Source: Somniosus microcephalus (taxonomy: Eukaryota). From it: a stretch of DNA of 64,000 bases. This document shows positions 5,631 through 64,000 of the stretch, in pieces. The stretch covers positions 34,348,001 through 34,412,000 of the forward strand of contig CM126220.1 in the NCBI GenBank assembly GCA_052327205.1. The letters are read 5' to 3'. The notes beneath the pieces were generated by a model. That model saw nothing but the letters and a program-made list of their open reading frames with translations. It was not told where the DNA came from and did no database searches. Made by a program: the position numbers and the translations under genes. Numbering within the stretch: the stretch's first letter is position 1; each line of letters opens with the position of its first letter.

Positions 5631-7399
5631 ACTCAGGACAAAGCTCGAGCTCCTTTTGTTTTTAAAATGTTTTAATCAAATCAGCAGTGGCTGGTGGTTA
5701 CCACTAATCCGCAATTAAAATAAAATGCCAAAGGAGCATGAAGCCCTGTGGAGGCTGAACAGAAACTGGGATGACGCCTGTCTTAGTGCCTAGTGCAAAT
5801 GGGACAGTAAGTTCAGTGATCACTTCAATATCCAGGACAGATGACCCCCCTTCACAATCTAAAAGGCAACTATTACAAATTTAGCATGGACCGGACACTA
5901 TCCAAATTTCTGCTGAGCTGTTAATGGGAGACTGTGAGTGTAGGCCATATACTTCCCTACAGGCAGGGAAGATTTGTGGCAGAAGTCACCCTGAGCAACT
6001 CTGGCACCGATATTATTAACCAGTTCAAGTGGCATGTGCCTGGACAAAGGTTGGCTTTCTGCCCACATGGCAAGAGTGTGGCATGACATGGGGGGCGGTT
6101 AAATGAGTGAAAAACTGATCATGATAAAACAAAAGAAAAATATAAAACATTTGAGGCTTATTCCTCATATGAGCACAGCCAGATGTTGATTACAAGGTTA
6201 AAGGAGTCCATGAGTACGACTTAAACAAAGGTTTAAAGAATTATGATTAGCTGGAACATCTTCTTATTTTATCTACTACGTTGATTTATATTTGTTTAAA
6301 TAATGAGTAGTGTTGATGTAAACCCAGGGGGCTTGCTTGAGTTACTGAGCCAGGCTTTTGCAAAGGAGATGAATTAACACACAGAGCTGAAATGTTTTGA
6401 CAGCTGATGTATGTATCTTCTGATAATTCAGCTCTTTCACACTGCTCAGGCCCAGTAACTGCTCCGATCCACGAGCGTCACTAATATGACCATCCCTTGC
6501 TGTTTAAATAAAAACAGAACGAACAAAAATGATGCTAAATGTTTTTGTGGCTGATTTTCATGGGGGAGGGGCACTCACTCTTTTAAGGTAATACTATCTG
6601 ACACCAATAATCTGATAAGTCAGAAAGTATTTTTGTATAAAGATAGAAATTGCACAAGTATTATAGCCAGATGTACAGTTTTACAGACCTCAAGCTGACT
6701 ACTGCCAATAAATACTTAAATACCATGCAGTACAGTACTTAGCTGCATCATGCTATGACTTTCAATACAGATTTGTTTTCATGTAGACAGGAACCCTGTC
6801 TGGGAGGGAAATGTAGCATTGTTTCCCTCAAAAAAAACATTTCTCTGCAAGAAATGTAAACATAACATTTAACAAAAATCAACATGCATATAAAATAAAG
6901 ATTAAAACACAGGAAAGGGAACATTAGCAATTATATTGAAAGTTGGCTACTGTCCCAACCAACTAAATTAAGTTACTGTACTTGTGTCTTTAAAGAAACT
7001 AGTGTATGGATGGTAAGTAAACCAGCCAAGACACCAAAAGATCACGTACCCTTGAGACCGCAGATAATGCATTAATGGTTTAAACACCGGCATCTGTCTC
7101 TGGACTTAGAGCTCCTTTATTTCCAGACTGAAATACCACCATTCTTCAATAACTAAAAGTGTTTTATTCATGGATAATGGAACATTACTTTTTCAAATGC
7201 AAACATTTCTTTTACCAAAGCGTCCAGAGTAAACACATTATTCTTTATGTAACAGTAAAATTATACCTAAAAGAGCTTTACTATCACCCTGTTCTTTTTC
7301 CACTATTTTTTTCTGGCATTTAGTAATTTGCCTATAAATACACCCATTTGCTTAAATATGAAGAATTTTGGGAAAGGTTGTAAATTTTTGCATGCTTTT

Positions 7400-9826
7400 C
7401 ATAGAATCGAACAGCACAGAAGTAGACCAGTCGGCCCATTGTGTATGATCAGCTCTTTGAAGGTGACTCAACCGTGGCTAACAAGGAAAATTAGGGATAG
7501 CATAAGATTCAAGGAGAGGACATATAAATTGGCCAGAAAAAGCAGCAAACCTGAGGATTGGGAGCAGTTTAGGATTCAACAAAGGAGGACAAAGGGATTA
7601 ATTAAGAGGGGGAAAATAGAGTATGAGAGTAAGCTTGCAGAGAACATAAAAACTGACTGTAAAAGCTTCTATCGATATGTGAAGAGAAAAAGATTGGTGA
7701 AGTCAAGCGTAGGTCCCTTGCAGTCAGAATCAGGGGAATTTATAATGGGGAACATAGAAATGGCAGACCAATTAAATACATACTTTGGTTCTGTCTTCAC
7801 AAAGGAGGACACAAATAACCTCCCAGAGATGTCAGGGAACATAGGGTCTAATGAGAGGAAGGAACTGAATGAAATCAGTATTTGTAGTGAAATGGTGTTA
7901 AGGAAATTGACGGGATTGAAGGCCGATAAATCCCCAGGGCCTGATAATCTACATCTTAGGGTACTTAAGGAAGTGGCCCTAGAAATAGTAGATGCATTGC
8001 TGGTCATCTTCCAAAATTCTATAGACTCTGGAACAGTTCCCATGGATTGGAGGGTAGCTAATGTTACCCCTCTATTCAAAAAAGGTGGTAGAGAGAAAAT
8101 GGGGAATTATAGACCAGTAAGCCTGACATCGGTAGTGGGGAAAATGCTAGAGTCCATTATAAAAGATGTAATAGCAGAGCACTTGGAAAACAGTGACAGG
8201 ATCGGACAAAGTCAACATGGATTTACAAAAGGTAAATCGTGCTCGACTAATCTACTGGAATTTTTTGAGGATGTAACTGGTAGAATAGATAAGGGAGAAC
8301 CAGTGGATGTGGTGTATTTGGACTTTCAGAAGGCTTTCGATAAGGTCCCGCATAAGAGATTAGCGTGTAAAGTTAAAGCACATGGGATTGGGGGCAAGGT
8401 ACTGACTTGGATAGAGAACTGGCTGGCAGACAGGAAGCAAAGAGTTGGAATAAACGGGTCTTTTTCCGAGTGGCAGGCAGTGACTAGTGTGGTACCGCAG
8501 GGATCGGTGCTGGGACCCCAGCTATTCACAATATATATTAATGATCTAGACGAGGGAACTAGATGTAATATCTCCAAGTTTGCAGATGACACAAAGCTGG
8601 GTGGGCGTGTGTGCTGTGAGGAGGATGCCGAGAAACTCCAGTATGATTTGGACAGGTTGGGTGATTGGGCAGATGCAGTATAATGTGGATTAATGTGAGG
8701 TTATCCACTTGGTGGCAAAAACAGGAAGGCAGATTATCCGAATGGCAATAGATTGGGAGAAGGGGAAGTGCAACGAGACCTGGGTGTCCTTGTGTACCAG
8801 TCGCTGAAGGTAAGCATGCAGGTGCAGCAGGCAGTTAAGAAGGCAAATGGTATGCTGGCCTTCGTAGCGAGAGGGTCCGAGTACAGGAGCAAGGATGTCT
8901 TGCTGCAGATGTACAGGGCCTTGGTGAGACCACACCTTGAGTATTGTGTGCAGTTTTGGTCGCCTTATCTGAGGAAGGATGTTCTTGCCATGGAGGGAGT
9001 GCAGCGAAGATTCACCAGACTGATACCTGGGATGGCAGGAATGACGTACGAGGAGAGATTGGGACGATTGGGCTTATACTCGCTGGAGTTTAGAAGAATG
9101 AGAGGGGATCTCATTGAAACTTATAAAATTCTAACAGGACTAGACAGACTTGATGCAGGAAGGATGTTCCCGATGGCGGGGGAGTCCAGAACCAGGGGTC
9201 ACAGTCTAAAGATAAGGGGTAAGCCATTTAGGACAGAGATGAGGAGGAATTTCTTCACCCAGAGAGTGGTGAACCTGTGGAATTCTCTACCACCGAAGGC
9301 AGTTGAGGCCAATTCATTAAATATATTCAAGAAGGAATTCGATATATTTCTTAAGGCTAGAGGGATCAAGGGATATGGGGAGAAGGCAGAGACAGGGTAC
9401 TGAGTTTGGATGATCAGCCATGATCTCATTGAATGGCGGAGCAGGCTCGAGGGGCCGAATGGCCTACTCCTGCTCCTATCTTCTATGTTTCTATCCAATT
9501 ATGCCCACTCCCCTGCTCTTTGCCCATAACTCTGCAAATGTCACTTTTTCAAGTATATATCCAATTCCTTTTTAAAAGTGACTATTGAATCTGCTTCCAC
9601 ACCATAACAACTCGGCAAGTAAAAAATATTCTCATTGCCCCTCCTGAATTTTTTTGCCAATTATCTTAAATCGGTGTCCTCTGGTTACCGACCCTCTTGC
9701 CAGTGGAAACAGTTTCTCCCTATCAACTCTATGAAAACCCCTCATAATTTTGAGCACCTCTATCAAATCTCCCTTTAACCTGCTCTGCCCTAAGGAGAAC
9801 AATCCCAGCTTTTCTAGTCTCTCCAT
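7400..9826 (-). mobile_element. Older CR1 3' fragment split in two (7400-7460 and ~9491-9826) by the young CR1
   Basis: Left piece ...cagctctttgaa and right piece atccaattatgcccactcccc rejoin into the tail seen intact near 62770-62815; ORF 9632-9826 ERLEKLGLFSL...TRGHRFKI. Confidence 0.8.
7461..9495 (+). mobile_element. Young 5'-truncated CR1 LINE, ORF2 reverse transcriptase with premature stop
   Basis: [37 protein letters not shown] and KFADD motifs; C-terminal ORF 8753-9403; 3' tail ...ctcctatcttctatgtttct. Confidence 0.97.
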
Positions 9827-31375: not shown

Positions 31376-31479
31376 CTTCTTCACAGTTGCTCCCTCTGAA
31401 CCCAGCACAGCATTTCCATTCTATTGCCGACACTGTTTTGTACGTCAGTCTGTAAGTTGGTCGTATCACCGCCCTGTAA
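31376..31479 (-). CDS. EMID1: EMI-domain protein exon 3
   Basis: ttttccag|TTACAGG...GAAGAAG|gtgaga; 104 nt, phase 2-1; SYRAVIRPTYRLTYKTVSAIEWKCCAGFRGSNCEE, the EMI W.CC.G....C motif; 7 Cys across exons 2-3. Confidence 0.93.
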
Positions 31480-31679
31480 CTGGAAAATGTTTTAAAAAAA
31501 CACCTGTAAGTAAAGAAATAAAATGCTTCTCTGAAGCACAGTGGGGGGGGGGGGGGGGGGCGGGAAAGCGGGCACCCACACTCACCATCTTCCAGCCCTG
31601 CCCACACTCCCTTCCCTCCCCACAGCTGACCCGAGGCACGTGAGCAGCATCCGGCAGGTTCTAAAGCCCCGATTTTAAC

Positions 31680-34359: not shown

Positions 34360-35415
34360 CTTTAAGGAACTCTCAAAACACTTCACATAGAATGAATTGC
34401 TTTTAGGTGCTGTGACTTCACTGCAATTATTGTATACACAGCAGGATCCCACAAAATGAATGATCTGTTAGTCTATTTTTGGTTGGTGGTGTTGGAGGAG
34501 GAAATGTTGACCAGCGCACCAAAATACTGTACCGCACTGCTCTTCTACAAATACCGTACCGCGCTGCTCTTCTACAAATACCGTACCGCGCTGCTCTTCT
34601 ACAAATACCGTACCGCGCTGCTCTTCTACAAATACCGTACCGCGCTGCTCTTCTACAAATACCGTACCGCGCTGCTCTTCTACAAATACTGTACCGCGCA
34701 GCTCTTCTACAAATACTGTACCGCACCGCTCTTCTACAAATACTGTACCGCACTGCTCTTCTACAAATACTGTACCGCACCGCTCTTCTACAAATACTGT
34801 ACCGCACTGCTCTTCTACAAATACTGTACCGCACTGCTCTTCTACAAATACTGTACCGCACTGCTCTTCTACAAATACCGTACCGCACTGCTCTTCTACA
34901 AATACTGTACCGCACCGCTCTTCTACAAATACTGTACCGCACTGCTCTTCTACAAATACTGTACCGCACTGCTCTTCTACAAATACTGTACCGCACTGCT
35001 CGTCTACAAATACTGTACCGCACTGCTCTTCTACAAACTGTACCGCACTGCTCTTCTACAAATACTGTACCGCACTGCTCTTCTACAAATACTGTCCCGC
35101 ACTGCTCTTCTACAAATACTGTACCACGCTGCTCTTCTACAAATACTGTACCACGCTGCTCTTCTACAAATACTGTACCACGCTGCTCTTCTACAAATAC
35201 TGTACCACGCTGCTCTTCTACAAATACTGTACCGCACTGCTCTTCTACAAATACTGTACCACGCTGCTCTTCTACAAATACTGTACCGCACTGCTCTTCT
35301 ACAAATACTGTACCGCACTGCTCTTCTACAAATCTTTACCTGATTTGCTGAAATCCTGCAATGGGGTTGGACTCTGCAACCTTCTGACCCAGAGGTTACC
35401 AACTGAGCCAAGTTG
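34360..35415 (-). mobile_element. DeuSINE copy hosting an internal minisatellite
   Basis: SINE body at 34360-34515 (cagcaggatcccacaaa..ttggttggtggtgttggaggaggaaatgttgacc) and head at 35360-35415 (caaccttctgacccagagg..accaactgagcca). Confidence 0.7.
34521..35333 (+). repeat. 27-bp minisatellite, 30 copies
   Basis: Unit aaatactgtaccgcactgctcttctac; 19 + 11 nine-residue repeats in the ORF track around a 2-bp deletion near 35037. Confidence 0.98.
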
Positions 35416-36049
35416 ACACATGGCACCATCCTCTGGAATGACTACTCTTGCCTCACTGCAGGCTATACACTGCTAAAAGGTGAGAGTTCTTGCACATTGT
35501 GTCAGGCACTAGTACAACAGCAGGAGCTGACACAGTGTGAATGGAGTTTGGTCATGCTTGTTACTTGGAGAGAGTCCAACCCTCCTTGGGGCTGGTAGAC
35601 TGGCGCCAATAATGAATTTGATTTTTGTGTGGCCAGGGAAGGAAGCCACTTACACCAAGTTCTCTGATTTGCTCCAAAACTCAGACTTGCGGGCATGAGC
35701 ATGTGTGTGGATATTCTCATTTCCAGACAAAACTCAATAGCGTTCCATTTAAATGTTGCTTTATTCACACAATATTGTTATATTGGACCCCACCCAGTGT
35801 TACAGCAGCACTGAACTGGAAAAATAACATCCTTCATGTGTGTTAAGTACAAAAAGTATTATTTAGCTACCACATTTCCCAACAAAACAACCGTGCCAAC
35901 ACTTCAATGGTAATTATTTGGCTGTGAAGTGCTTTGGGATGTCCTGAGGATAGGAAATGCTATATTAAGGCAAGTTCTTTCTTTAAATGAATTCTATTTA
36001 TGTTGCCCATTTTTGGAATGAAGATCATTGTACAATAAATGTGGCCTTT

Positions 36050-47682: not shown

Positions 47683-50139
47683 AAGCAGTGCCTTTGTAAT
47701 TGACACCTATAGTAATGGCAAATGGTTAGCGCTATTTGCCAGGTACAGGCAGCGGTCTGGGATAAGCGGGGACAGTGTAAGCGGTGGGGACTGTGGTCGG
47801 ATGGTGATGGAAGAGACTGATGTTTTTGCATTGAGGAGCTAAAATAGGGTGAAAGGCCTTCCTCATCCAGTTACCTTGTGATTTATTGAACATAATCACC
47901 AAAGAAGTTGGCATATTTGAAACATATTTTGTGATATTTATTTTGTAACAGAATAGTTAACATGTTATTAAGTGCACAAACATTAATGATAGTCACAGTA
48001 GCTTACATCTGAAAAATAACTAAACGTTGAAAAATACAAATCTCAGTAGTTAGAAATATGGCCCATAAGATATTGCACAATTTAAATGTTTTATGTTTCT
48101 GAATATAGACATATTGAAGAACCGATGATGTACAGAGCTGTATACCGTTTAGAGTTTAATTCCGATTTAATTAGTACACACGAGAGCCCAGTGTACAAGC
48201 CCAAAATTTAAAAAAGGTACCTCCCCAGCTTTGTAATTATCCGGTAATCTATGTTCCAGAATTCACGCACAATGTAGTTTTCTTCCTTCTTAGTGAACAA
48301 TCACCAGCAGTGCATCAAAATTACCACACAAGTGAAACAGCTACTGAGAACGAATAGGTGCAACATTATGGGTAACAGGCATTGTAGGTGTAAATAAAAT
48401 GGGAAATTCTTCATATTCCAATATAGAAACAATGTTCACAGAGATGCAATTTTCAGAAAATAAATGTTTAGTTATTAATATATTACTGGGTTTATTTCAC
48501 AAGTGTATAAGGATTACAGCTTGAAATAAGAGCTCACTTTTGCCTGTGAAATAAATCCAATGGTACACTACTGCTCAACGCAAAGGTCCTTAAAGTATGC
48601 AGAAAGATTTACTGTGATCTGCACAAGAATGGATTTGCTTGCAAGCAAGATGTGTATTTTCCTAATTGGGTAAGAAATGCCAGTAGTTTCTCTCCCCTGC
48701 CCCATAGACCCAGATAAATAGCCTCACTGAGTAGATATTTACTTAAGGAGGCGCTGAAAATTGAGGAGGGCGAGGAAGAGCCCAAATGTCCTGAATATGA
48801 CATGCATCTAGTTCCTATTGTCGGAGGGAAAAAAAGACAATGAATGGGGAACCTGCATAGAGGCAGGTAATGTTTGGATTCCCCCAGATACAGCCTTCTA
48901 GTTTAATTGTATATCCATAAAATACAGCTGTGTTAAAAGTAGAAATTTAGCACACTCTTAAATTTTTTGTTATATATATTTTAAAACACGAACAGCTGTG
49001 ACTCCCAGGACGATGAGCTTTCTTCCTATTGCCTTACCATCATTTTTGGGAGATGCTCAGCTTTATGAGGGTAGATGGTACGAGGAGCATTTAAGAGCAG
49101 CACCAGGCAAGGACTGCAAATTATTTTTGTGCTCGACATGTTGTGGCGATATCCGAGTTACAACTTTTGGGAGGGAGGGTGTGAAAACACTAAAGGATGT
49201 GTTATAAGGAGGAATAAAACATCTTGCATTTTAAGTATGTATGCCAAAAATACACTCGAGGTAACAAAAAAAGAATAAATGCAATCCTCTGGCATATTTA
49301 CACAATTAGTATCTAACAACTTTCTTCAAAATAGACACTATTTCAGTACCACAGTTTCTTACAAGTTTTGTACAAATTCAAATGATTTCACATTAATATT
49401 TTTTATAGTTAACAGAAAGAATAGTATTCATTTTGTGATAACAACTTTCTAATTCTGTTGCCATTAAATTCAAACAACTTATAACAAAGTTTCAAACAAC
49501 TTTGCAGCCATTTTATATAATTAGTGAAAATTTGGAACATTCAGTATGTGCATTTCAGTACTACAGATCTATGGTTACTTGTTTACCAACTTCAAATACT
49601 AAAATTTAAAACTAGCACCATACCAAACAGAATTAACAAGTACAATTTTGCATTTTGATATATAAAGTGCACATCATATAATCGCACACAATAGTCACCA
49701 TTTAACTTTTTAAAATTCTCGATTTAAATCTAAATTAAGACAAAATAAGATACCTGTCATGATGTGAGATTTGTTCCAATTTGTATAACTCTTGCTGACA
49801 AAGCTATGGAAACAGGCAATTTTTTGGCATATAATCAGCAGGAGGAAAATTCGACACAAAGGAGTGCAACTTGGTTAAGCCATTTCGGTGCTGACATTAT
49901 ATAAATAAACACGAAAGTTCATTTAGATGTCATGTACTCAATGCAATTTCTGCAGTTTCTTTTTACAATGTCTACTACTGAATTAAAAGGGGTAATTTAA
50001 TCAAATAAAAAAGCAAGTGCTGCTTACAAGGTTTTATATATTTTTATAAATAATTGACCCAATCCTTTAATTAGCCCAAACAGCTTTTATATTGGGAAGA
50101 CTGACAGTAACACGAAAACACTGCTACACTATAATGAAA

Positions 50140-50510
50140 ATGAGAGGTAGCTCAGTAAACCTATCGACCGAGGAGCTGAGCTGTACAGATCAGGTCGGTT
50201 GGTTCCTGGTTTTTTTGCATTTGGTTGATCTCTGTTGCGATAGTGATAGGAGTGCTACAATTGACCTCAGGTTTGGGACAATCGTGGTGGGAGGGGGGCG
50301 GTTTCAGCTCTTTATCACTATCCAGTGATCCCTGTTGCAAGTGTGGACAAGATCAGTTTACCCGTGATGCCCTTCATGGGTGAGTAGGCTGCTGACACTC
50401 ACTGTAAAAGCTCATGTATGTGAGGTGCCAGATGGTGGCTGGTGCCCGTGGATCGGAAACCCCAGTAGGGTTCAGTGGAGGAGGAAGAGGGAGAAAATTG
50501 GCAAGAAAAA
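50140..50510 (+). mobile_element. SINE-like family 'A'
   Basis: gtagctcagt head; gctacaattgacctcag; cactatccagtgatccctg; gaggaagagggagaaaattgg plus A-rich tail. Confidence 0.7.
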
Positions 50511-51269
50511 AAATTGACATAAAAAAAATCGTGTGATTTCAATGTTTCTTTAGGAGTATTAACCCAAGTCTTCAATTTTTCAACATGCTAGCTTCCTATT
50601 AAACAACAAAATGCAATTTATAAGCAATTCACAGGCAGTGCTTGCAAGTTCAGCAGAGCCAACAATGAGCATCACCACAGCGGCACAGCTACTTGCTGTT
50701 AGCAGCACTCTCTTACTCTGTTTATATCAAGATTACATCAAGATAACGAGAACAAACGTAGTGATCATGGCCTAGGTTCAGTTCTCATGCATAACACCCC
50801 TAAATTATCACAATACATGCATATTAATATAAAACAAGGAAGCGATTTACATTAAGCGGTTTGATGCAAATTAGAATTCCACAGAGGAATAATCTAAAGT
50901 TTCTTATTCTATTCTAGTGCACATTGCCATGAGGTGACTGACACAAGAGCATCAAGTATATGGGACAGAAATACTTTTCACTGGAGCATGGCATTAATGT
51001 GAATGTGGTTTGCTTAACTTAACTCCGATATCTAGTAGTTAAGAGTTTTTAATGACAGGCTTCCATGTTTTAGTTTTAACATATGAATAAATAACAAGCG
51101 TGTAATTTTACAATCAAATGAGCTGCACAGTTTACAGTTACAAATGGTGCTCGTCACATCAATTCCATTTGCTTTTTACTGATCAACACAAGACATAGTC
51201 AAAGCTTCCCAGTGTGTCCATTATAGTTTAAACGTTTCATTGTTCTCCCACATCAATACCTGCGTTGCT

Positions 51270-51470
51270 TTAATATTCTTTCTCTGAGTTTGTGGCATCT
51301 TCTGCTCGTGTACCATTCAAAGAGCCATCTCCCTGGAAATCATCACCTCCAGACTCTACTGAGCCTGCAGCCAATTGGTGGAGAACTAACTTCTTGTAGA
51401 TTCCTCCCTTCTCTAAAAGCTTCTTATGGGTACCGCATTCCACTATCCTTCCTTTGTCAACAACAATCAC
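51270..51470 (-). CDS. ABCB-family ABC transporter, last coding exon
   Basis: T-rich acceptor ...aaattaag|GTG in phase 0, matching the previous exon; VIVVDKGRIVECGTHKKLLEKGGIYKKLVLHQL...EKEY*; typical ABCB C-terminal GTH..LL..GG.Y..LV motif; intron 51471-63195 (11.7 kb). Confidence 0.93.
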   Translation of the reverse strand: MIVVDKGRIVECGTHKKLLEKGGIYKKLVLHQLAAGSVESGGDDFQGDGSLNGTRAEDATNSEKEY

Positions 51471-52109
51471 CTTAATTTAAAAAAAAACATGCCGTTAAAA
51501 TTACCTTTATGTAAATAGTTCACAAATACTTTTTAAAACAATATTATATTTTATAAAGAATGAATAAATAGCGTTATTTTATTGATTTTTCCACACCCAA
51601 ACCAGTCATATGAACATTGCTTCAAAGTTTCAGTAAAACCTTCCTGACTTTGTGGGATCAAGTGCATTGATAATTATTTTTTGATTAATCTTGTATTCTC
51701 CAGAATGAGGCACAATCTACAGCAACAAATCGGTTTGATGTATTTATGCTTAATAAAAAGAGACGTTCACTACATAAGCCAAGATATTATAGCTGGCATC
51801 TAACTCTGTACTGCATGTGTATATAATTTATTATGCACAGTTTCTTGTATCCATCCTTTTTCACATGAAAGAACATGAAGCATGATAGATTAAAAAAACA
51901 GTAGTACTCCCATATCCTTCTGCCGAACAGATGCAGAACAACCTAGAAAATAAAAGTATGAGGAGTTGCACAGGGACATTTTATAAATCACTTCCATCAT
52001 ATATTGCACTTGTTCAGCTAACTTAACATTTTTATTAATGGATTTCAAATATCCAATGAACTGAATATTATGCACTCTTCAAATATTTAGGGGGGCGGGG
52101 GCACTTATC

Positions 52110-52428
52110 AAGGCCAATTTTGACAGCACCTCCCAAACCTGTGACCTCTACCACCTAGAAGGACAAGGGCAGCAGGCGCATGGGAACACCACCCCCTCCA
52201 AGTCACATACCATCCTGACTTGGCAATATATCGGCGTTCCTTCATCGTCGCTGGGTCAAAACCCTGGAACTCCCTCCCTAACAGCACTGTGGAAGTACCT
52301 TCACCACACGGACTGCAGCGGTTCAAGGCGGCGGCTCACCACCACCTTCTCGAGGGCAACTAGGGATGGGCAATAAATGCTGGCCTTGCCAGCGAAGCCC
52401 ACATCCCATGAATGAATAAAAAAAAAAT
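52110..52428 (+). mobile_element. LINE 3' end with poly(A)
   Basis: ccctggaactccctccctaacagcactg...cacatcccatgaatgaataaaaaaaaaa. Confidence 0.85.
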
Positions 52429-52639
52429 TCATGAATTAATTCACTACAGGCCTTTTATGTGGCCACTCTTGTAGAATGAGGAACGACGTCAGCATCCAAA
52501 ATAACTAGCAAAGAATGAAATTCTTAGTTTGGCAGAAAAAAAATACCATACAGAAGGCAAACGAAGCGGCAATATGGCACATTGTATATCTCAACAACAT
52601 GCCTCTCAAGCAGAAGTGAAGAAAGGACACTACTAGCAA

Positions 52640-53130
52640 AGTACAATGGACGAGTTGGCAAATCTGACTCTTCCAACACTTCTCTCAATCTCCTATGCAG
52701 AATACAATGAAAGGCCTCTCAAGACAATCTTCTCTCACCTTTTGCTGCCAGCCACTCTTTCTCTGTCACAACTTTTCTTGTGCCTATTTGATCAGTGCTA
52801 CAGCGCTGCTCTGAACTTTCCTCTCTTGTTCTCCTAAACTGCTGCTACATCACCCAGCACATTCTCTCTCTTTCCTTCATCCTCAGCGTGAATTCAAAAT
52901 TCAGTATCCTACTTATCTAGCCTTTCCCAGGACCTCTAAACTGTGGAATGCCTTACTTCCCTCAGTCTTTGCTTCCTCTCCAATCTACAAGCTATTAAAA
53001 CCCAAACGTGGTTATCACCTAATCAACAGTTCCTGATTTACCTCACCTTCATTCCTACTCTGTTCAACCTTGTTGGTGTCCTGCACTAAGGGCCTTGACT
53101 CTTGAAATAGGTTCATCAATAAAAAAGTGA
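52640..53130 (+). mobile_element. Old LINE 3' relic
   Basis: FPRTSKLWNALLPSVF-like remnant near 52920-52970. Confidence 0.45.
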
Positions 53131-53489
53131 GTTAGAACCTTCAAGGCACAGACAAATAGTACTAAGATTGAGTAGCACAATGAACCAGGAATGCTCATGC
53201 TTTCACTTATCGATCCTGATTGAAAGAATTAAAGTTTCCCTCTCCGTCAGCAGGAAATGTCCTAAGTGAAATGGCTGATAACTTTCAATCCACTTCCTAG
53301 TGGGTGACTTCACAGGCCATAATTTGAAACACTCATTCAAAAGAACAACTGCTGTGGGAAATAGAATTGTTACATTGATGGGCTAGGAGATACCTTTCTG
53401 AGGTTGTAATTATGGCAGGTTGTTGAGGGATGGTCGAGCGAGCTTCGACCTTCATCTGATGTGCGCTATACCCAACGTTGCAGTGCTCT

Positions 53490-53760
53490 TTGAGGGGAAA
53501 AAAGTCTTTTCTCTTCGCTCTTCCCTGCTGGAGTCACCGTTCTCCAACTGCTGGTCCCTCGCCTCACTGGTTATTCATCAGGCACATAACTACTTGAAAA
53601 TACACACCTGCTCACACGTGCACACCAGTTCCAGCAGGACTTACTAAATAGCCATAAGGAGCAGCAACACTGGCTGATGTTTCCTTTCTCTATCCAGGAG
53701 CATGAAGTCAAACTGTCAATTTGATCTTCACCCTGGGTGAAATCAGCTAATTCAAGTGTT
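53490..53760 (-). mobile_element. SINE-like family 'A', diverged copy
   Basis: ttccagcagga..atagcc..aggagcag..ctggctgat. Confidence 0.55.
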
Positions 53761-56700
53761 CCATTTAAACTGAGTTCAAAGAGATGGAAGACATTTTGTT
53801 TCCCACCACAATAATCTCCATTTTGAAGAGCCCTAAAATTAATAAAATGTTAAGGAGCAAAAAGATAAGTTCAACTGCTCAAAGGCAATAAAGGTGTGCC
53901 TTAGAGCCAAGAGTCTCATAGACCTGGAAGGCAAGGTCACTTACCCTCTACAGAGAGATCAAGAGATTGCTCCGAGCACAACAGCTTGGAGAATGGGAAA
54001 CCCTGGCACAATGTAAGGATCTTTGCATTCTGGAAGGGAGGGAAGGTAGAGGTGTTCCACAAGTTCCCTGCGATCTTTGTGCATGGTAAGCCTTGCCCCA
54101 AGATAGCACTCACTATGGAACAGGCCCACCACATCCCAAAACCAGCAAATTCCAGGTGCCCCAGGGTTTTGTGGGGAATTGCAAAGAAAAAAAATCTAAC
54201 TACCAAGGTTCAGACCCAGGATAGTCATTGGTATATTAGAGAAAGGAATTTGCTTTTCATGCACAATCACTGCAAGTGGAGACTCAAGAGTACAGAATCA
54301 TAACAAAAAAACCCTGAAAAAATGTGAACTTAAAGCAGATCAACACAATGGTAAGAGCTGAATGAGAACAGATGGATAAAATAGAAAATAGTTGACAATG
54401 GTTCATAAGCTTCTAAGAACAGTCTAGATAATTCAGTTTGATAAACATGTGCAGTACAAGGAGTAATGCTGTACTTACACATTTGATACTGGTGCTGCAT
54501 CATAATTTTTGACATACTTGTGCAATATAGAGCTGACAGTTTGGACCAGTACTGGAGGTGATCTTGTTTCATATTCGTTTTGCACCAAAAGCAGTATAAC
54601 TGCAAGGTGCAAAGCCAGTTTTTTTTTAAAAACTTAATTAAAAAAAAAAAATCTAACAGTACAGCAATTTTTCTATAAATTAACTATCCTTTTAGCTTCT
54701 CTCAATCTAAAGAAAGAGACCCACAATGGAGGCTTTTCAGCAACATCTCATGCAGGCATTTTAGTGCAGGTGTAGGGAACTTTACTGCAATCCACTTCTA
54801 AAGGATACTAAACTAACCATTGCTAACTTTGACAGATACACCAAAACAGACATCAAAATTTTGGACTGAGGTAGTCAGAAGAAACCTAAAAGCAACCTGT
54901 AGTATGTTATCACAATACCTTACCAAATGCTATTTGCCAGCATGCTTAGTAGGTTGAAGTGAATCAGTTGGTGGTCTTTGCATTGTATTTGTGTGTGGAA
55001 AGAGACACTGATTGATGTCTGACAGTCAATGATATCATTAAATTAAAGCACAGAAATGGCCACTTCCAGTATGGAGCTAGGGACCGCTTGTGTTTAAAAC
55101 ACAGTTATTTTACATTCGAAATAACTTGAGATTATAGATAATTTTTAGTACTATACACAGTATTGGGAGTTTCCTTTGATTGCCCTTCCAACAGCCTACT
55201 GCTGCTACCTTCACCCCAGTTACAAGGTGGTTTTAATAGCAGTTAGGGTGTGAGAGGTGACAAAAAATCATGGCTGCCAGCAGGCCTAGTAGACCAAAAC
55301 ACTCCCCATCCCATCTATACCGTTAGTAGTTTTGTTACCACTCACCTCGGTATAGAGCTTCTCCAGCCATTGGTGGGGGGGGGGGGGGGGGGGCGCAGAG
55401 TTACAACGTGACAGTTTAAGGTCTTAAAACGATTAGCAGTGGCATGCAGCCATTTTGGAAAAAGTTTTTAATACTTTTTCTCACTGCAGTACTTTGCCCA
55501 ATGATTGGGGAAAGCTACAAACATATGCGTCAGGGTGCAACCCCATTATTTAGTGTCTGCACAGAGAGGAATAGATGCACTTCATCAGCTCAGTGTGGCA
55601 GGGGCTATGTTTATTTGCCACCTCTGCCTCTGGTGCAAGTGCTGTTGAGTTACACTGCAAGCAGAAATAGACCTGCTGTTTGATGTAGAACTGGAAACCA
55701 CCAGGATATGTGGTGCTTGTTGCCTCCATCCTCCAAAGCATCACTACTTTTACATTAAGAACTTGTTGCCAATTTCAGTAGTGCTGTCTACAGCAAGCCC
55801 GTAATAAAAATGGGGTATGAGGCCTTAAGAGTTTGGGTTAATAGTTGATTGAATGTATAATGGCCATCTGAATTCAATCACAGTATTATAAAATGCAGTA
55901 CTCTTACTAATTCAACACTGTTAACTCAAATTCAATTCCGAATAGACAGGCTTGACTAAGAACACCAAGAACAACCAATTACCTCCTTCATAGTTTTCTT
56001 GCCTGCTGTGTGAGCCTGATTTGAAGCTGCAAAGGACCAGAAACTGAAGGCAGTGTCTCCAACAGTAGCAGCAAATGCTATCAAATATTAATATATTTCA
56101 TCTGTACTGGAGATTTGAGGAAAGCAGGCTGTGGTCTCATTTTTTACATTGACCTGCTTCTGCTCATTTCCCAGTACAGTATGGTACAGTACAGTCATCC
56201 ATTACTATTTAAACAACAGATACCTGGTAGTGAGTCAAAGGCTGTAACTTAATTGCAGGGTTCAGATAACGTTTATAACTTCCTCTAATCCCCTCGATTA
56301 TGTTATTCTTATAACTCACTCCCAGGTATCATTATATCAGAACATTGCTAGGAATGTGTTTATATCAAGATTACAGATTATATATACAACTTTTTAAAAA
56401 TGTAATACATTTAAGGGCACTTGGAAGTTCTTGCTTTTACGTTGAAAGTGGTCTCAAAATGCTGTCCAGCTCAATAGAAACTATGAGGCATCAGATAAGA
56501 ACCACAAGGGCCCCATTAGTTGCCAGAATTTATAAAACATGCCGTTAGCTTGGAGACTCATTTTAAACACAGAATGCAGGCATCTGCTTCTACTAAGCAG
56601 AGAAATTAAACTTCATAGTTCAAGTACTGCTAGTAAATGTTTAACTTTTACACCTTCCAGTTTGAGCAGCACAGTTAAACACATACACAGTACCAGCCAT

Positions 56701-57699
56701 CTTCCTTCCAGATTGCTGCAGCAGAGCTAAACACATACACAGTACGAGCTATCTTCTTTCCTTTTTTGTGCATATATTTATGACTTCTGGGAAGTCCACA
56801 AGAATTTTCCTTCTTTGGCCAGACAAAGTTTAGATTTTGAAAACTGATAGTCTAGAAAGCTTAATTACTGAACCACAATTGCTACAGTGGAAAACAGTTA
56901 ATAGGCATGCGGTCATTGGGAACATGACTTTAGATGGGCTATTCAGGGATTATTTAATACCACATATTTTCTAAATAAAGGAGATTTGTTGGTTTGTCGA
57001 ACAGTTTAGTTTGGGCTTATAGCTTTATAATTACGATTGTTGGCTATCACTACAACTGATCAACTTTTGGGTTACCAGATGCAAGTATTTTAAACAAAAG
57101 CAACAGTCAGAATTTCATCTTTTGCAGTTCAAGTGCTGGGAGCTCTTGCAGTTAGTGCCCGTTAGGTTTTTCTTAAATGAATAACTTTGAACAATTAGGT
57201 CAGCAGATAATATACACAAGGTGATATTAATGCCACATTATAGATCCAATTCCCAAGAGCACAGTTGAGTTAGTTTTAATCCCTCTCACTATCCACTATT
57301 CTTAAGACACTTGCCTAACAGGTTGCTTCCAATTTGGATCAGTGCATATGCTTTTAATAGTGTTTAGTCAGCAGTAATAATTGGATAACTGGAACATTTT
57401 ACTGGCTAGGGATTGTTATGTTAGAAAAGAATTGTTTATTGGCACCAATTTTAAGCTAATCAAAATTGTATGGAATCAAGAGTTTGATGAGAGAACATCA
57501 CTCATTTAAGTTTAATGCTTGTGAAATGACATTGTGGTAACAGTTTGATATTGGAGTAGACTGCTTTAGACACTCAGTCTGGCACAGTCATGGCTTTAAT
57601 ATGTCTAAGATTTGGAAGAAACACAGAGTAAAAAAATATTGGTTGTGAAATATCCAATTAGCTCAATTATTGAGATCACGTAAATAAAGATTAAAAATA

Positions 57700-58010
57700 A
57701 TTTGCATTTATATAGCACCTTTCACTACCTCAGAATATCCTAAAGCTCTTCACAGCCAATGGAGGCCTTTTGAAGTGTTGTTACTGTTGTAATGTACTGA
57801 AAGGTGTCAGCCAATTCATGTGTAGCAACATCCCACCAACAGCAAAGAGATTAATGACCAGATAATCTGCTTTTAGGTGATGTTGGTTGAGGAATAAATG
57901 TTGGCCAGGACATCTGGCAAACTTTCTTACTTCTCTTCTAATAGTGCCATGAAATCTTTTCCATCCACCCCAGAAGGGGCCTTGGTTTAATGTCTCATCT
58001 GAAAGACAGA
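57700..58010 (-). mobile_element. DeuSINE (SacSINE1-like)
   Basis: Collinear with 38025-38340. Confidence 0.85.
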
Positions 58011-59528
58011 TGCTGTGCTTTGTAGATAGAGGTCATTTTGGAGCATGTTCATTTTCTAAAGCAATCTAGTGGTTAAGAGAGGACATGTATTCAGTTTGGT
58101 TCAAATCTGCTAAAGCATTTATGTTAAAACTGTTGTGTGATCCTTACTTATTCTGGAATTAGGAAAAAAACTTAATATTGCCTACATGAACACTAATCCT
58201 TACCAGCATCCTTTTATAAAAAGGCCACATTATGCTTATCAGCATGAGTAGCTCGACATAATTTCTGCAGAGCTATCCATTGAGGAAGTTTAATTAGGAA
58301 TTCTATGGCCCAACTCTCAAAGTACAGAGAAGCAGGAAATAGTACAATAGTAATCATTTCCAGCAAAGCAGGCAGTGTTTTCAGTATCTTTGGCAGTACT
58401 CAATTTGACTTGGGTTATTTTAGCTGAAAAAAAGATAAACACAATAGTAGCGTTAATTCCCACTAGACTTTAAGTCAAATTGGCATAGAACATTTTACAT
58501 TTACTTCACATTTTCATTTGATCTTCCTATACATGAGCTGTATTATTTGCATGTAAATTTCATAGGAAAACTGAGGTCCAACAATTAGGTATTCAGACTT
58601 TTTGCTGGATTTAAAATGAGTAATTTAACATTGTTTAACTTTTCCAGGACGGGTACTTTTTCAGACTTAAAATGCAGACATGCTTTCAAACAGCAAGAAT
58701 TTCTGCAAATCCACAATGTTGAACTTTATATAGTTGTTCAAGAAACATCGAATCAGAGTATTCTTGAAACTATAGTAAATTCAGATGTTTTGTTTAAATC
58801 ACAAAAGTAAAATTCCAGTCCTCAAATGGTCATGAAGTTTGAATTAAATAATCCATTTAACTGTATACCCATTTCTATGTTACTACAAACTTTAGAATTT
58901 CCAATTTATCTCTTGCCCTCGGTGAAACATTGGGAGATCATTAAAATGATTTTCATCTTAACCTCCAAGTAGCATCACTTAGCTCTGATTTAAGGATTTA
59001 TACTTTTACAGTATTGTTAATAGGTTAATTTAAGTCTTTTTGTCCCAAAGTGCAGTCTGCATGTCCTAAGGGACGGGGGACAGAGGAATCTTGCATCAGC
59101 TACCAAAGAAACATCTTTGATTGGACATCATGTTGCTATTAATAGACCATCTAAATCCTCTGGCTGCAGGAGGAGGCAATTCTGAGATGGGGGGGGATGA
59201 AAAAAGTTAGATCAGAGCAATTCCACAGCAGAACTATTTCTACAGATGACATTTTCTCCCTGTCTTGGACTGTTCACTTGTTTCTGTTTTTCTACAATTT
59301 TATACATGCGAACACAAGTTCAGTTGCACTCCCTCACAAGATTGGCTTGGATGAAGAAGTCCCTTCAGCCTATTTGACTTCATCCTTCCAGTACACCATC
59401 TCTACTATTTTCCTACTATAGCACCTGGCATTTTTTTTAAAAATGAGCCAAATGCCCTGGTTTCAACCACTCTTCCTGGCAATGCTCCAGCTGTTGGTCA
59501 CACTCTGTGTAAAGAAACACTTCCTGAC

Positions 59529-59702
59529 CAAAGCTCCCTCTAAGCTAAGTTTGTTGTGCATGGCCTGTTTATTTCAATGCGCGGTCCCTTTAACTTTCTG
59601 CACATGCACAGTATTTCCAATGGAAAAGCTCGTGAGCGGCCTGCGTGGAACCTTGCAGATTACTGCGCAGCCTTGCACGCGCGCAGCTTAGAGGGAACTT
59701 TG
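59529..59702. mobile_element. 174-bp hAT-like MITE
   Basis: TIRs caaagctccctctaagct / agcttagagggaactttg (17 of 18 match); degenerate 8-bp flanks ttcctgac / ttccaggt. Confidence 0.75.
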
Positions 59703-59734
59703 TTCCAGGTGTCTGCCCTGAACTTTAAAATAAA

Positions 59735-60000
59735 TTCATTCTGGGGATATGGGCATCGCTGGCAATTTATTGCCCATCCCTATTGCCCTCGTGAAGGTGG
59801 TGGTGAGCCACCTTCTTGAACTGCTGCAGTCCTTTTTGTGGTGAAGGTACTCCCATGATGCTGTTAGGCAGGGAGTTCCAGGAATTTGACCCTGCGATGA
59901 AGAAACCACGATACAATACACGTCCAAGTCAGGATGGTGTGTGATTTGGAGGGGAACTTGGAGGTGATGGTGCTCCCCTGCACCTGCTGCCCTTGTCCTC
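59735..60000 (-). mobile_element. LINE 3' end (family of 52110-52428)
   Basis: Reverse-complement similarity to 52140-52420. Confidence 0.85.
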
Positions 60001-60004
60001 ATAC

Positions 60005-60680
60005 AACAGCAACAAAGTAATAAAACATCCCAAGGCACTTCACAGGAGCGATCAAACAAAATTTGACACGGAGGGGCACAAAGAAATATTAGGGCAGGTG
60101 ACCAAAAGCTTGGTCAGAGGTAGTTTTAAGGAGCCTCTTAAAGGAGGAGAGAGCAGTAGAGAGGCGGAGTGGTTTAGGGAAGGAATTTCCAAGCTTAGGG
60201 CCTAGCCAGCTGTAGGCACGGCCGCCAATGGTGGAGCGAAGAAAACTGGGGATGCGCAAGAGGTCATAATTGGAGGAGCGCAGGACTTCGGAGGGTTGTA
60301 GGGCTGGAGGTCGTTACATAGATAGGAAGGGGCGAGGCCCTGGAGGAACTTAAGAACAAGCAAGAGAATTTTAAGATTGAGGAGTTGCCGGACCGGGAGC
60401 CAATGTAGGTCAGCGGGCACAGGGGTGATGGGTGAACGGGACCTGGTGCGAATTAGGATATGGGCAGCAGAGTTTTGGACAAGCTGAAGTTTAGGGAGGG
60501 TGCAAGGTGGGAGGCCATCCAGGAGAACATTGGAATAGTCGCATCTAGAGGTAACAAAGGCATGGATGAGAGTTTCAGCAGCAGATAAGCTGAGGCAGGG
60601 ACGGAGGTGGGTAATGTCATGGAGGTGGAAGTAGACGATCTTGGTGGTGATGGTAGAGGTCGCAGGTTTGGGATATTTCA
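60005..60680 (-). mobile_element. L2 LINE ORF2 C-terminus and 3' UTR
   Basis: AETLIHAFVTSRCDYSN..KLQLVQNSAAHIL..SPITPVPADLHWLPV. Confidence 0.9.
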
Positions 60681-60689
60681 AATGATTAT

Positions 60690-60900
60690 GCTACATTTGC
60701 TATCACCACCCTGGAGCTAGGGGGGAAAAAGTGCACCATGGTTCACATTCTTGATCACTATCAAGTGAACCTTGTTGGAAGTGCAAGTGTGGACATCAGG
60801 TGAGGACAGAATGCCCCCACAGTGAAATTACCAGCACCAAAAGAATTGCACCCCAGCAAGGAGTCAATGTCTTCAGGAAAGAAGGGGGTGAAGACAATGC
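60690..60900 (+). mobile_element. SINE-like family 'A', internally deleted
   Basis: gatcactatcaagtga..gtggacatcaggtgaggacag..ccccagcaaggagtca. Confidence 0.65.
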
Positions 60901-61014
60901 AGCAGAAAAAAATGATGGCTCTAAAAAGAAAGGGAAAGTAGCAGAAAGTGAGGGGATAATACAGCAGGAAAATTTAATTTGGCCCAGTTGCAATTGTGAT
61001 TTCCGCCTATTCAA

Positions 61015-61240
61015 CAACAACAACTTCTTGTATTAATATAGTGCCTTTAACGTAGTAAAACATCTCAAGGCGCTTCACAAGAGCGTTATAAAACAAAATT
61101 TGACACCGAGCCACATAAGGAGAAATTAGGGCAGATGATCAAAAGCTTGGTCAAAGAGGTAGGTTTTAAGGAGCATCTTAAAGGAGGAAAGTGAGGTAGA
61201 GAGGCAGGGAGGGAATTCCAGAGGTTAGGGATTCAAGGGA
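61015..61240 (-). mobile_element. L2 LINE 3' end
   Basis: Matches 31680, 42658 and 60005. Confidence 0.85.
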
Positions 61241-62269
61241 GCAACTATACCATTCAAGATCCAATAGAAACTGTGCAAATCCTTGCACAAACCATAAAGC
61301 CTTAGAGATACAGCTATTACTGACAGGCTGAAGTGTTGCTCGAGTTTCTTTGGTTGAATTCTTCTGTCCTCTTTGGAACCTAAGTTTGCAATGTGTAGTA
61401 TTAAAAAAAAGCACCTGCCAGCTTCAAGACACCTTTTTAATAACATGGCAGTGTAAGAAATCTTCCATTTCTTTTAATATCCAACACCGTGTAGTTATCT
61501 CCTTTGATATAACTGAAGGCACAATCAATATGATCCTTCAAAGTGAAAGACAATGTCCACAGTCCTTTTGATCTAAGCATCAGCTGTTATTTCCTCCCAG
61601 AGAGATGATATTTTAAGTCTGCCTCTGACAGAAATGTCTAGGTCTCGGGACATGGGCACTGGCAGAGCTGAAGCCCTGGTTTCAATATACAGAACAGACG
61701 GCTGCTGTTAGGCTCTTCTTGTGAGGACCCTGGAGACTGAATATTTAACACCCAACAATAAAGAACTCTTACTCAAAAGGACTATTTTGTACGAAAATCA
61801 AGAGCTGGTCATGGAATATACATTAGAGATAGAAAAATGGCTCAAGAACTGACCTCTAGATCTGCTTCTTGCAATAAAAAAAAATCCAGTCCTGTACAAA
61901 AGTAGGCATTAAATTTTAAGAACTCCCCCATTATAAAATCGTGCGTGCATACATTTACCCTGGTTAAAAAGTAAAGCAGCCACACTCTGGTGAATTAAAC
62001 CAAGAGGATCCCTGCGGAGTGCATATGCTTTCGATCATCAGCGCCAGTTTGTTTAGTCTGTTTCAAGATCAATTTTGTTTATTCAAAAAAAAAAATCATC
62101 TTTGCCAAGTTTATGTTGTGTTTTAGCAAAAGCAAAAAAATATATATAGTAGCAAAAGAATGTGCTGTGCTAGGATCAAATCTTCCACTGGGTAGCACTT
62201 ATGATCTTTCTCAGAGTCAACTGGTCTGTTTTACCTGAACTCTTTCTGTTCCTAAGATAACATTCAATG

Positions 62270-62945
62270 CAGCATTAAAGAGGAAGATGGTAGCTAGATG
62301 TCAGATGAAATCTAATGTGGAGTAATGTGAAGTGAGAGACAGAATAGGGCCATATACACTAGATGGTAACATTGTAAAAGGAGTAGAGGAACAGAGGCTT
62401 AGGGGTTCAGATACACAAATCTTTAAAAGTGGGTGGACAAGTTGTTAAAACTCTTTGTATAAAAAAAAGCCCATGAAATCCTAAGTTTTAAAAATAAAAA
62501 TAGCCTTAGAAAGCCAAGAGGTAGATAACGAAGAAGGTGCAGATAAGATTCACTATGATGATACCAGGGGTGAAGACTTCAGTTATTAGAATAGATAAGG
62601 GAAAGTGGAGGGGAGGGGAGCGGTGGGGTGGATGGTCTTTTATTAGAACAACGAATATTAATAGAAGATCTGACAGAGGTATTCAAAATTATTTCCACTG
62701 AGTCAGTAGCTAGAAGTGTAAATTTAAAATCACCAAAGAACAAAGGTTAGAATCATACAGCCTATGCCGGCTCTTCGACAGAGCTCTCCAATTAGTCCCA
62801 CTCCCCTGCTCTTTCCCCATAGTCCTGTAATTTTTTCCCTTTTCAAGTATAATAGGGTAGGGGAACGGGACTAAGCAGACAGCTCTTTCAGAAAGCTGGC
62901 ACAGGTTCAATAGGTCAAAAGGTCTCCTCCTGTGCTGTAACATTT
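62270..62945 (+). mobile_element. Old CR1 relic with an oppositely oriented CR1 tail (~62748-62848) inside it
   Basis: cagatgaaatctaatgtggag..tgtgaagtg, DLTEVFKII; plus-strand tail at 62850-62945. Confidence 0.7.
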
Positions 62946-63195
62946 TTGAATCAAAAATCATCTTAAGTAACTGTCACAACTCACCAACCAACACCTTTTA
63001 TCATTTAATAGTTTGGTTTCTCATAGGTTATCTTGCTTTACACAATACGCAGGCCACATTAAATTTCTCATGTGTGGGCTCAATTCACAGCAGTGAGGGG
63101 TTCCCCGACAGTGGACACTAATTTGACATGACTATAGCATTTTAAAGACATTTGGACATGCAATTCTCCCCCAAACCAAAATTCTCTCAACTTAC

Positions 63196-63318
63196 CTTTG
63201 AGGCATTTCTTACAGTTGAAAGCCTGTGCGCAATTACCAAAACCGTTCTCTCTTGCATAACCCGATCAATGGCCTCTTGTACTAGGTGCTCACTTTCTGC
63301 GTCCAAAGCACTTGTAGC
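63196..63318 (-). CDS. ABCB-family ABC transporter, penultimate coding exon (NBD D-loop/H-loop)
   Basis: Minus strand: ...tttactag|GCTACA...TCAAAG|gtaagt; 123 nt, phase 0-0; translates [41 protein letters not shown], containing the SALD D-loop and AHRLST H-switch of ABCB NBDs. Confidence 0.95.
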
Positions 63319-64000
63319 CTAGTAAACCAGAAAAATGTGTTGGAGAGAACCTTGCATGTTTCAGTAATCTACTCAACATTCAATCAAATCATTTCAATGT
63401 CCACCACAATACCATGGGAATTGGTAAATGCATATTATCAGGGTTAATGTAAACCAGAGTTAAATGGGGCACTTACGTCTGATTTGTATTATATCCATTA
63501 TCTATAGCAGCAGGAAACAACGGTTATTTCACTTTAGGGCAATAAATAATAGCCAACCAGAACTCTATTGTGCATATCCCCCCCCCCCCCCCACAAAACT
63601 CTACCATAATTGCAAACACAACTGTGTTCTCTACAAAAATCCACAGTAGGGGAAAAATTGTTCTAGCCACTATGTGTAATGACATCTTAAACATGATCTT
63701 TTTGAATGCATTTACAATGCCATTACATATAGTGACCAGAGCAATTCTTCTGACAACTCCCCCCCCATAATACTCCTATTAAAACCAAAAAAAAAATCAT
63801 TTTGATTAATTCAAATTTGGAACACAAAATCATTCTTGGTCTGATCCAATATGGGAAGAGTATTCTGAAGCAATGCGTAGCCAAGCAAACATCCATCTGG
63901 GGGGTGGAGGGGACAATTAGACCTGGCTTTTGAACTCCATGGCAAGTCTAGAAATTGATCTGAAATATAATTCAGATATAGTTCGGGTGAATAGGAAATA

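What the first reader, a model, noticed from the sequence alone, without database searches (positions are those of the whole stretch)
51270..63318. ABCB transporter that does not look like an ortholog of any mammalian ABCB gene
Seen: two cleanly spliced exons giving [74 protein letters not shown] plus a ~33-aa acidic/Gly tail, with phase-0 introns immediately before ATS and at K|VIV. Recalled knowledge: human ABCB9/TAP have an intron just after the D-loop ([10 protein letters not shown]|), ABCB10 has one inside ATS|ALD, and ABCB8 has one before AGTH; the sequence mixes ABCB8/9/10-like traits, and YKKLVLxQL recalls invertebrate and plant TAP-like half transporters. Inference: an ancient ABCB half-transporter lineage kept in cartilaginous fish but lost in mammals, with unknown substrate. 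A TAP/TAPL-like peptide transporter would be of immunological interest.
Basis: partly seen in the sequence, partly recalled or inferred. Interest (0 to 1): 0.7.

Follow-up and report, generated by a model that had tools for sequence, protein, structure and literature searches.

The report
Ancient ABCB pump bony vertebrates lost
This is the tail end of an intact shark gene for a membrane pump from its own ancient branch, shared with lampreys, invertebrates and single-celled relatives of animals but likely lost in bony fish and land vertebrates; its front part resembles the late-endosome anchor of the cholesterol carrier STARD3, so it likely works in lysosomes, possibly on lipids rather than immune peptides.

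Summary
The two exons are real. They are exons 18-19 of an intact 19-exon, 788-aa ABCB half transporter spanning 164 kb, and the splice is seen in relatives' RNA-like contigs. It is not ABCB8, 9, 10 or TAP: the genome holds those separately, only 1 of 18 introns is shared, and trees reject each orthology (AU p 0.0006-0.011). It forms its own clade with chondrichthyan, lamprey, invertebrate, choanoflagellate and amoebozoan proteins. No bony vertebrate appears among the 120 best hits, so the loss probably predates mammals. The lamprey copy was printed in 2015 as an unresolved 'ABCB10-like'. Its N-terminal four-helix domain is homologous to TAPL's TMD0 (modest scores) and to the MENTAL domain of STARD3 (library-wide E about 1e-5); I found that link in no paper. 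Both known carriers are endolysosomal, so this is probably a homodimeric lysosomal exporter. TAPL's peptide-anchoring residues are absent and the lamprey gene is silent in myeloid cells, so an immune role is unlikely. The substrate is untested. The scan's earlier notes held nothing related.

The parts
63196..63318 (-). Exon 18 of 19 (aa 682-722): D-loop and H-switch of the nucleotide-binding domain
   Evidence: splice seen
51471..63195 (-). Intron 18, GT-AG, phase 0, 11,725 nt, rich in interspersed repeats
51270..51470 (-). Exon 19, coding part (aa 723-788 and TAA): end of the NBD and a 33-aa acidic tail; the stop lies 11 codons earlier than in relatives
48160..51269 (-). Probable 3' UTR of about 3 kb. 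Covered by RNA-like contigs down to 50000; the end near 48160 is inferred from one contig's length and ATTAAA sites
63319..64000 (-). 3' end of intron 17 (17,756 nt). The gene continues beyond the window: exons 1-17 lie at G000:C19:34,429,075-34,563,019 and encode the four-helix TMD0/MENTAL-like domain (aa ~15-165), the six-helix TMD, Walker A, Q-loop, signature and Walker B

Best explanation
The window holds the last two exons of an intact shark ABCB half transporter from a separate ancient lineage, likely lost in bony vertebrates, which is predicted to work as a homodimeric ATP-driven exporter in late endosomes or lysosomes, probably moving a lipid or other amphipathic substrate rather than TAP-type peptides. 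Shown: gene structure, canonical ATPase motifs, a separate clade, and an N-terminal four-helix domain homologous to TAPL's TMD0 and STARD3's MENTAL domain. Inferred: absence from bony vertebrates (about 0.85), homodimer (0.75), endolysosomal targeting by the N-terminal domain (0.6), non-peptide hydrophobic substrate (0.4).
For: Gene model with 18 of 18 GT-AG introns and no internal stop. Separate ABCB9 (two copies), TAP1, TAP2, ABCB8 and ABCB10 loci. Family clade 100/99; 98/95 with an amoebozoan. AU rejects grouping the vertebrate genes with ABCB10 (p 0.0006), TAP/ABCB9 (0.002) or ABCB8 (0.011). No bony vertebrate named among 120 listed hits; 0 of 30 unnamed or poorly named hits fall in the shark+lamprey clade, though the collection holds turtle, bird and rabbit ABCBs. 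Catfish and human inventories list no extra half transporter (PMC3655950). Walker A, signature and Walker B Glu are canonical in nearly all of 63 members. The TMD0 profile finds three MENTAL-domain proteins at E 9e-6 to 1e-4 among 1.84 billion and shark ABCB9 TMD0s at 21 and 32 bits against at most 12 and 9 in 500 shuffles each. D27, D59, K67 and K119 are kept in 59, 63 (D/E), 60 (K/R) and 61 of 63 and align with D17, D49, R57 and K100 of mouse TAPL. TAPL's TMD0 is necessary and sufficient for lysosomal targeting (PMC5937356), and MENTAL anchors STARD3 in late endosomes (PMC8472075). TAPL peptide contacts Y405, Q298 and E456 (PMC9532399) are E418, V311 and G474 here.
Against: No localisation, dimer or transport data exist. 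TAP1 and TAP2 also carry a TMD0 yet stay in the ER (PMC5937356), so the domain does not force a lysosomal site. The TAPL match is weak alone (E 0.14 in PDB, next hit ninjurin-2 at 0.29; hhalign probability 54%). The chondrichthyan proteins (0 of 2) and shark ABCB9 TMD0s (0 of 2) do not hit Pfam MENTAL, and only 2 of 19 non-preselected members pass its cut-off. Shark ABCB9b and TAP2 also lack the Tyr at TAPL 405, so its absence does not exclude peptides. Absence from bony vertebrates rests on a word-seeded search showing 120 of 536 hits. The trees hold only shark and turtle paralogues, and the ABCB8 model is partial.
Confidence: 0.5

Rival explanations
1. A second TAPL-like lysosomal peptide importer that binds peptides with other residues, alone or paired with ABCB9.
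For: Homologous TMD0; one intron shared with ABCB9/TAP1/TAP2 at aa 538; a sister relation to TAP/TAPL is not rejected (p 0.45); plants have a vacuolar peptide-transport activity (PMC5937356, passage).
Against: Y405, Q298 and E456 equivalents missing and TM10 lacks TAPL's acidic residues; only 40-42% core identity to shark ABCB9/TAP; lamprey orthologue at 0 RPM in neutrophils and monocytes.
Confidence: 0.25
2. A detoxifying or ion-balance exporter (metals, xenobiotics, osmolytes) in vesicles or plasma membrane of gill and kidney.
For: The lamprey orthologue peaks in kidney (to 24 RPM), muscle (18) and gill (12-17); database names follow plant ABCB25/27, recalled as vacuolar aluminium-tolerance transporters; 45-46% core identity to plant half transporters.
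Against: Relation to the plant proteins is unresolved (p 0.38) and they start without a TMD0; the expression data come from one species.
Confidence: 0.17
3. A mitochondrial ABCB10-like duplicate, as the lamprey and rotifer names imply.
For: ABCB10 is the closest vertebrate paralogue by core identity (45%) and the top solved half transporter by sequence and fold.
Against: AU rejects the grouping; no shared intron; a true ABCB10 exists; the N-terminus is about 15 residues followed by four membrane helices, leaving no room for a long presequence.
Confidence: 0.05
4. The gene survives unnoticed in some bony vertebrates (gar, bichir, coelacanth, lungfish), so the loss is later or patchy.
For: No bony-vertebrate genome could be searched directly; only 120 of 536 hits were listed.
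Against: An orthologue should exceed the lamprey's 67% core identity, yet nothing lies between 67% and 88%.
Confidence: 0.12

Closest known systems
ABCB9 / TAPL (lysosomal peptide transporter and phosphatidylserine floppase)
   Same: TMD0 + TMD + NBD half-transporter layout; homologous four-helix TMD0 with aligned D17/D49/R57/K100; canonical ATP sites; one shared intron.
   Different: Separate clade and locus; 41-42% core identity; 17 of 18 introns differ; peptide anchors Y405/Q298/E456 absent.
STARD3 / STARD3NL MENTAL domain (PF10457)
   Same: The first two helices and the connecting S-x-F-D loop align; reciprocal profile hits.
   Different: Fused to an ABC core instead of FFAT and START; weak similarity in helices 3-4; cholesterol binding untested.
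Lamprey 'ABCB10-like' (Ren et al. 2015, PMC4458048); NCBI 'ABC transporter B family member 1/25/27-like'
   Same: The same gene: the paper's supplementary protein matches P0013, which is sister to the chondrichthyan genes.
   Different: Named by BLAST and called 'not well resolved'; no statement there on an ancient lineage, loss or N-terminal domain in the passages read.
ABCB10 and ABCB8 (mitochondrial)
   Same: Half transporters, 45% and 40% core identity.
   Different: Orthology rejected; no shared introns found; membrane TMD0 in place of a presequence.
Plant ABCB27/ALS1-type half transporters (label recalled; the records used are unnamed)
   Same: 45-46% core identity; a sister relation is not rejected.
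   Different: No TMD0; separate clade; relation unresolved.

Membership tests
ABCB half transporter | One ABC_membrane domain followed by one ABC_tran domain | tested here: met
   Pfam on the 93%-identical P0002; gene model ends after one NBD
ABCB half transporter | Intact Walker A, Q-loop, signature, Walker B Glu, D-loop, H-switch | tested here: met
ABCB9/TAPL orthologue | Clusters with ABCB9/TAP | tested here: not met
   AU p 0.002; two true ABCB9 genes elsewhere on C19
ABCB9/TAPL orthologue | Shared intron positions | tested here: not met
   1 of 18 shared
ABCB9/TAPL orthologue | Four-helix TMD0 | tested here: met
   AF2 pLDDT 91, four long helices; profile hits above 500 shuffles
ABCB9/TAPL orthologue | Peptide-anchoring Y405, Q298, E456 | tested here: not met
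   E418, V311, G474; shark ABCB9b also lacks the Tyr
ABCB9/TAPL orthologue | Lysosomal location and peptide transport | not testable with these tools
   needs cell and liposome assays
TAP1/TAP2 | Clusters with TAP; lies with the TAP pair | tested here: not met
   TAP1/TAP2 on C35 group with turtle TAPs; this gene is on C19 between a DTX1-like gene and an EMI-domain gene
ABCB10 orthologue | Clusters with ABCB10 and shares its introns | tested here: not met
   AU p 0.0006; no shared intron
ABCB8 orthologue | Clusters with ABCB8 and shares its introns | tested here: not met
   AU p 0.011; none shared with a partial model
Full-length ABCB1/4/5/11 | Two TMD-NBD halves in one chain | tested here: not met
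   788 aa, one half; orthologues about 790-800 aa
MENTAL domain (PF10457) | Score above the Pfam cut-off | tested here: inconclusive
   7 of 24 members pass (5 preselected), 15 of 24 hit at E<1; 0 of 2 chondrichthyan proteins; reverse search finds MENTAL proteins at E 9e-6 to 1e-4
MENTAL domain (PF10457) | Same fold as MENTAL or TAP-family TMD0 | tested here: inconclusive
   Only generic four-helix bundles returned
MENTAL domain (PF10457) | Cholesterol binding and late-endosome targeting | not testable with these tools
   needs photo-cholesterol labelling and imaging
Plant ABCB27 / Dictyostelium AbcB1 orthologue | Supported clustering | tested here: inconclusive
   Plant sister relation neither shown nor rejected; Dictyostelium AbcB1 itself was not in hand

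The most novel reading that the evidence does not exclude
A MENTAL-ABC fusion subfamily as old as the animal-amoeba split: an endolysosomal sterol or lipid pump whose N-terminal domain captures cholesterol, lost at the origin of bony vertebrates. It would show that the TMD0 of TAPL (and so of TAP) is a diverged MENTAL domain, giving the targeting module of the antigen-peptide transporter family a sterol-handling origin.
Probability: 0.3. Interest if true: 0.78.

Novelty: new variant of a known kind. Interest (0 to 1): 0.52.

Why it matters
The vertebrate ABCB set is treated as closed at ABCB1-11. This is a further, slowly evolving branch that is mislabelled ABCB10-like or 'B family member 1-like' in databases and seems to have vanished in bony vertebrates. 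It also bridges two domains studied apart: TAPL's TMD0, whose targeting mechanism a 2018 review calls unknown (PMC5937356), and STARD3's MENTAL domain, which a 2021 review says had no structure or homology model (PMC8472075). That makes cross tests possible: domain swaps, cholesterol labelling of TMD0, and mutation of the shared buried Asp and Lys.

Full report
Observation. The window is G000:C19:34,348,001-34,412,000 of a 6.4-Gb genome. Contigs from runs guessed to be RNA join the two exons: X7 and X8 (2 of 4 runs show both pieces in one listed record), X1 and X7 as loose ends. These runs are from other, related organisms. They read TGG where this genome has TAA, so the 33-aa tail is an 11-residue truncation peculiar to this genome's lineage; one DNA contig that may be the source agrees with TAA.

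The gene. With a catshark orthologue (P0002) I mapped 17 more exons upstream, at G000:C19:34,429,075-34,563,019. The model has 19 exons over 164 kb, 788 aa, all 18 introns GT-AG and no internal stop; identity is 92-95% to sharks, 89% to chimaera, 62% to lamprey and 57% to amphioxus. It has one TMD and one NBD behind an extra N-terminal domain of four helices (AF2 pLDDT 91). ATPase motifs are canonical in nearly all of 63 aligned members, unlike this genome's TAP1, which has Asp for the catalytic Glu; that favours a symmetric homodimer (inference). Neighbours are a DTX1-like gene about 100 kb upstream, head to head, and an EMI-domain gene downstream.

Not an orthologue of the known genes. The genome has separate ABCB9 (two tandem copies), TAP1, TAP2, ABCB8 and ABCB10 loci. 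The gene shares 1 of 18 introns with ABCB9/TAP (aa 538, phase 0) and none with ABCB10 or a partial ABCB8 model. In ML trees of the core the family is one clade (98 SH-aLRT, 43 rows, mixture model, quick search; 100/99, 26 rows), and AU tests reject joining the three vertebrate members to ABCB10 (p 0.0006), TAP/ABCB9 (0.002) or ABCB8 (0.011). An amoebozoan protein (Ceratiomyxa) and two unnamed ones join at 98/95; Thecamonas and Creolimax proteins are unplaced; sisterhood to TAP/TAPL (p 0.45) or to plant half transporters (p 0.38) cannot be decided. Paralogue sampling is thin: shark and turtle only.

Range. The 120 best of 536 hits are chondrichthyans, lamprey, amphioxus, echinoderms, a hemichordate, molluscs and other spiralians, a scorpion, a priapulid, cnidarians, a placozoan, sponges, a choanoflagellate, two plant full transporters and unnamed records. 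No bony vertebrate is named. In a tree of the 118 half-transporter hits plus the gene, the shark+lamprey clade holds 13 rows and 0 of the 30 unnamed or poorly named rows; core identity drops from 88% straight to 67%. The collection does hold tetrapod ABCBs, and a catfish survey lists 12 ABCBs against 11 human ones with no extra lineage (PMC3655950, passages). I put loss in bony vertebrates at about 0.85. An intron at aa 194 appears old: 44 of 74 library fragments that reach this point run into a Val-Ser/Arg read-through typical of a GT donor.

Prior description. Ren et al. 2015 (PMC4458048; passages and supplement hits) list a 790-aa lamprey 'ABCB10-like', named by BLAST and 'not well resolved'. 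Its printed protein matches P0013 by eye. Its expression is highest in kidney, muscle and gill and 0 RPM in neutrophils and monocytes. A fish ABC review (PMC8696203, passages) adds nothing on it.

The N-terminal domain. D27, D59, K67 and K119 are conserved across 63 members. A profile of 30 such domains ranks mouse TAPL first in the PDB, weakly (E 0.14), aligning those residues with D17, D49, R57 and K100. It scores the two shark ABCB9 TMD0s at 21 and 32 bits against maxima of 12 and 9 in 500 local shuffles each; hhalign gives 54%, E 1e-4. Pfam MENTAL hits this region in 15 of 24 members, 7 above cut-off, of which 5 were preselected for that label; the chondrichthyan proteins and shark ABCB9s themselves do not hit it. 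In reverse, the profile finds 171 proteins at E<=0.001 among 1.84 billion; the 150 listed include a coral STARD3-like protein (E 9e-6), a choanoflagellate MENTAL-START protein (6e-5), another MENTAL protein (1e-4) and two RhoGEF fusions. So this family sits between TAPL's TMD0 and MENTAL in sequence space. Fold searches could not test it. Searches found no paper stating the link, although precomputed Pfam labels already show it for 5 of the 120 hits.

Mechanism. TAPL's TMD0 is necessary and sufficient for lysosomal delivery, while TAP's binds tapasin through a TM1 Asp in the ER (PMC5937356, passages; PMC6199259, passages). MENTAL anchors STARD3 in late endosomes and binds cholesterol (PMC8472075, passages). 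An endolysosomal site is therefore the best guess (0.6). TAPL binds peptides through Y405, Q298 and E456 and also flops phosphatidylserine, with lipid and sterol densities in an upper cavity (PMC9532399; section 11 and passages). Here those positions are E418, V311 and G474, with V in 54 and A/G in 60 of 63 at the last two and no Tyr among the five commonest residues at the first. TM10 lacks TAPL's acidic residues. I therefore favour a lipid or amphipathic substrate moved from the cytosolic side (0.4) over peptides (0.25) or metals and xenobiotics (0.17). The caution is that shark ABCB9b and TAP2 lack the Tyr too.

Verdict. A real, intact gene of an unnamed ancient ABCB branch, catalogued once under a wrong name, with a probable loss in bony vertebrates and a domain link that I did not find in print. 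Function is inferred, not shown. Novelty: new variant of a known kind. Interest 0.52.

Noticed in passing
window 31376-31503 (-): Exon with an EMI domain (Pfam PF07546, E 2e-9), the downstream neighbour gene; EMID1 or COL26A1 by recall, not resolved.
   Followed up: partly
G000:C19:34,665,495-34,665,693 (+), L102: WWE exon matching human DTX1 (E 1.5e-41): upstream neighbour, head to head.
   Followed up: partly
G000:C19:5.24-5.28 Mb and 5.34-5.42 Mb: Tandem duplicate of ABCB9. Copy b has the longer branch, lacks the TAPL Tyr405 equivalent and its model is 7 aa short in TM9.
   Followed up: partly
G000:C35:79,101,400-79,101,600 and 79,860,200-79,860,400: The Walker A exon of TAP1 and TAP2 is almost identical in protein, which suggests gene conversion or exon exchange.
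   Followed up: no
P0384 (Pigoraptor), P0411 (Craspedida): The same four-helix domain fused to a RhoGEF domain in unicellular holozoans.
   Followed up: partly
window 51240-51272 (-): TAA replaces TGG, and the old 11-residue C-terminus still reads in frame behind it.
   Followed up: yes
window 7271-9403 (+): Broken LINE-type reverse transcriptase ORFs (recognised by eye).
   Followed up: no
window 34396-35441: Long tandem repeat with long open frames on both strands.
   Followed up: no
G000:C19:34,570,400-34,571,050; 34,652,600-34,653,050; 34,753,700-34,756,150: Transposase-like, RNase H-like and integrase-like remnants upstream of the gene, recognised by eye only.
   Followed up: no
P0182, P0155-P0157, P0159: Database records that fuse two neighbouring half transporters into one protein (turtle TAP1+TAP2; plant pairs), probably annotation artefacts.
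   Followed up: partly
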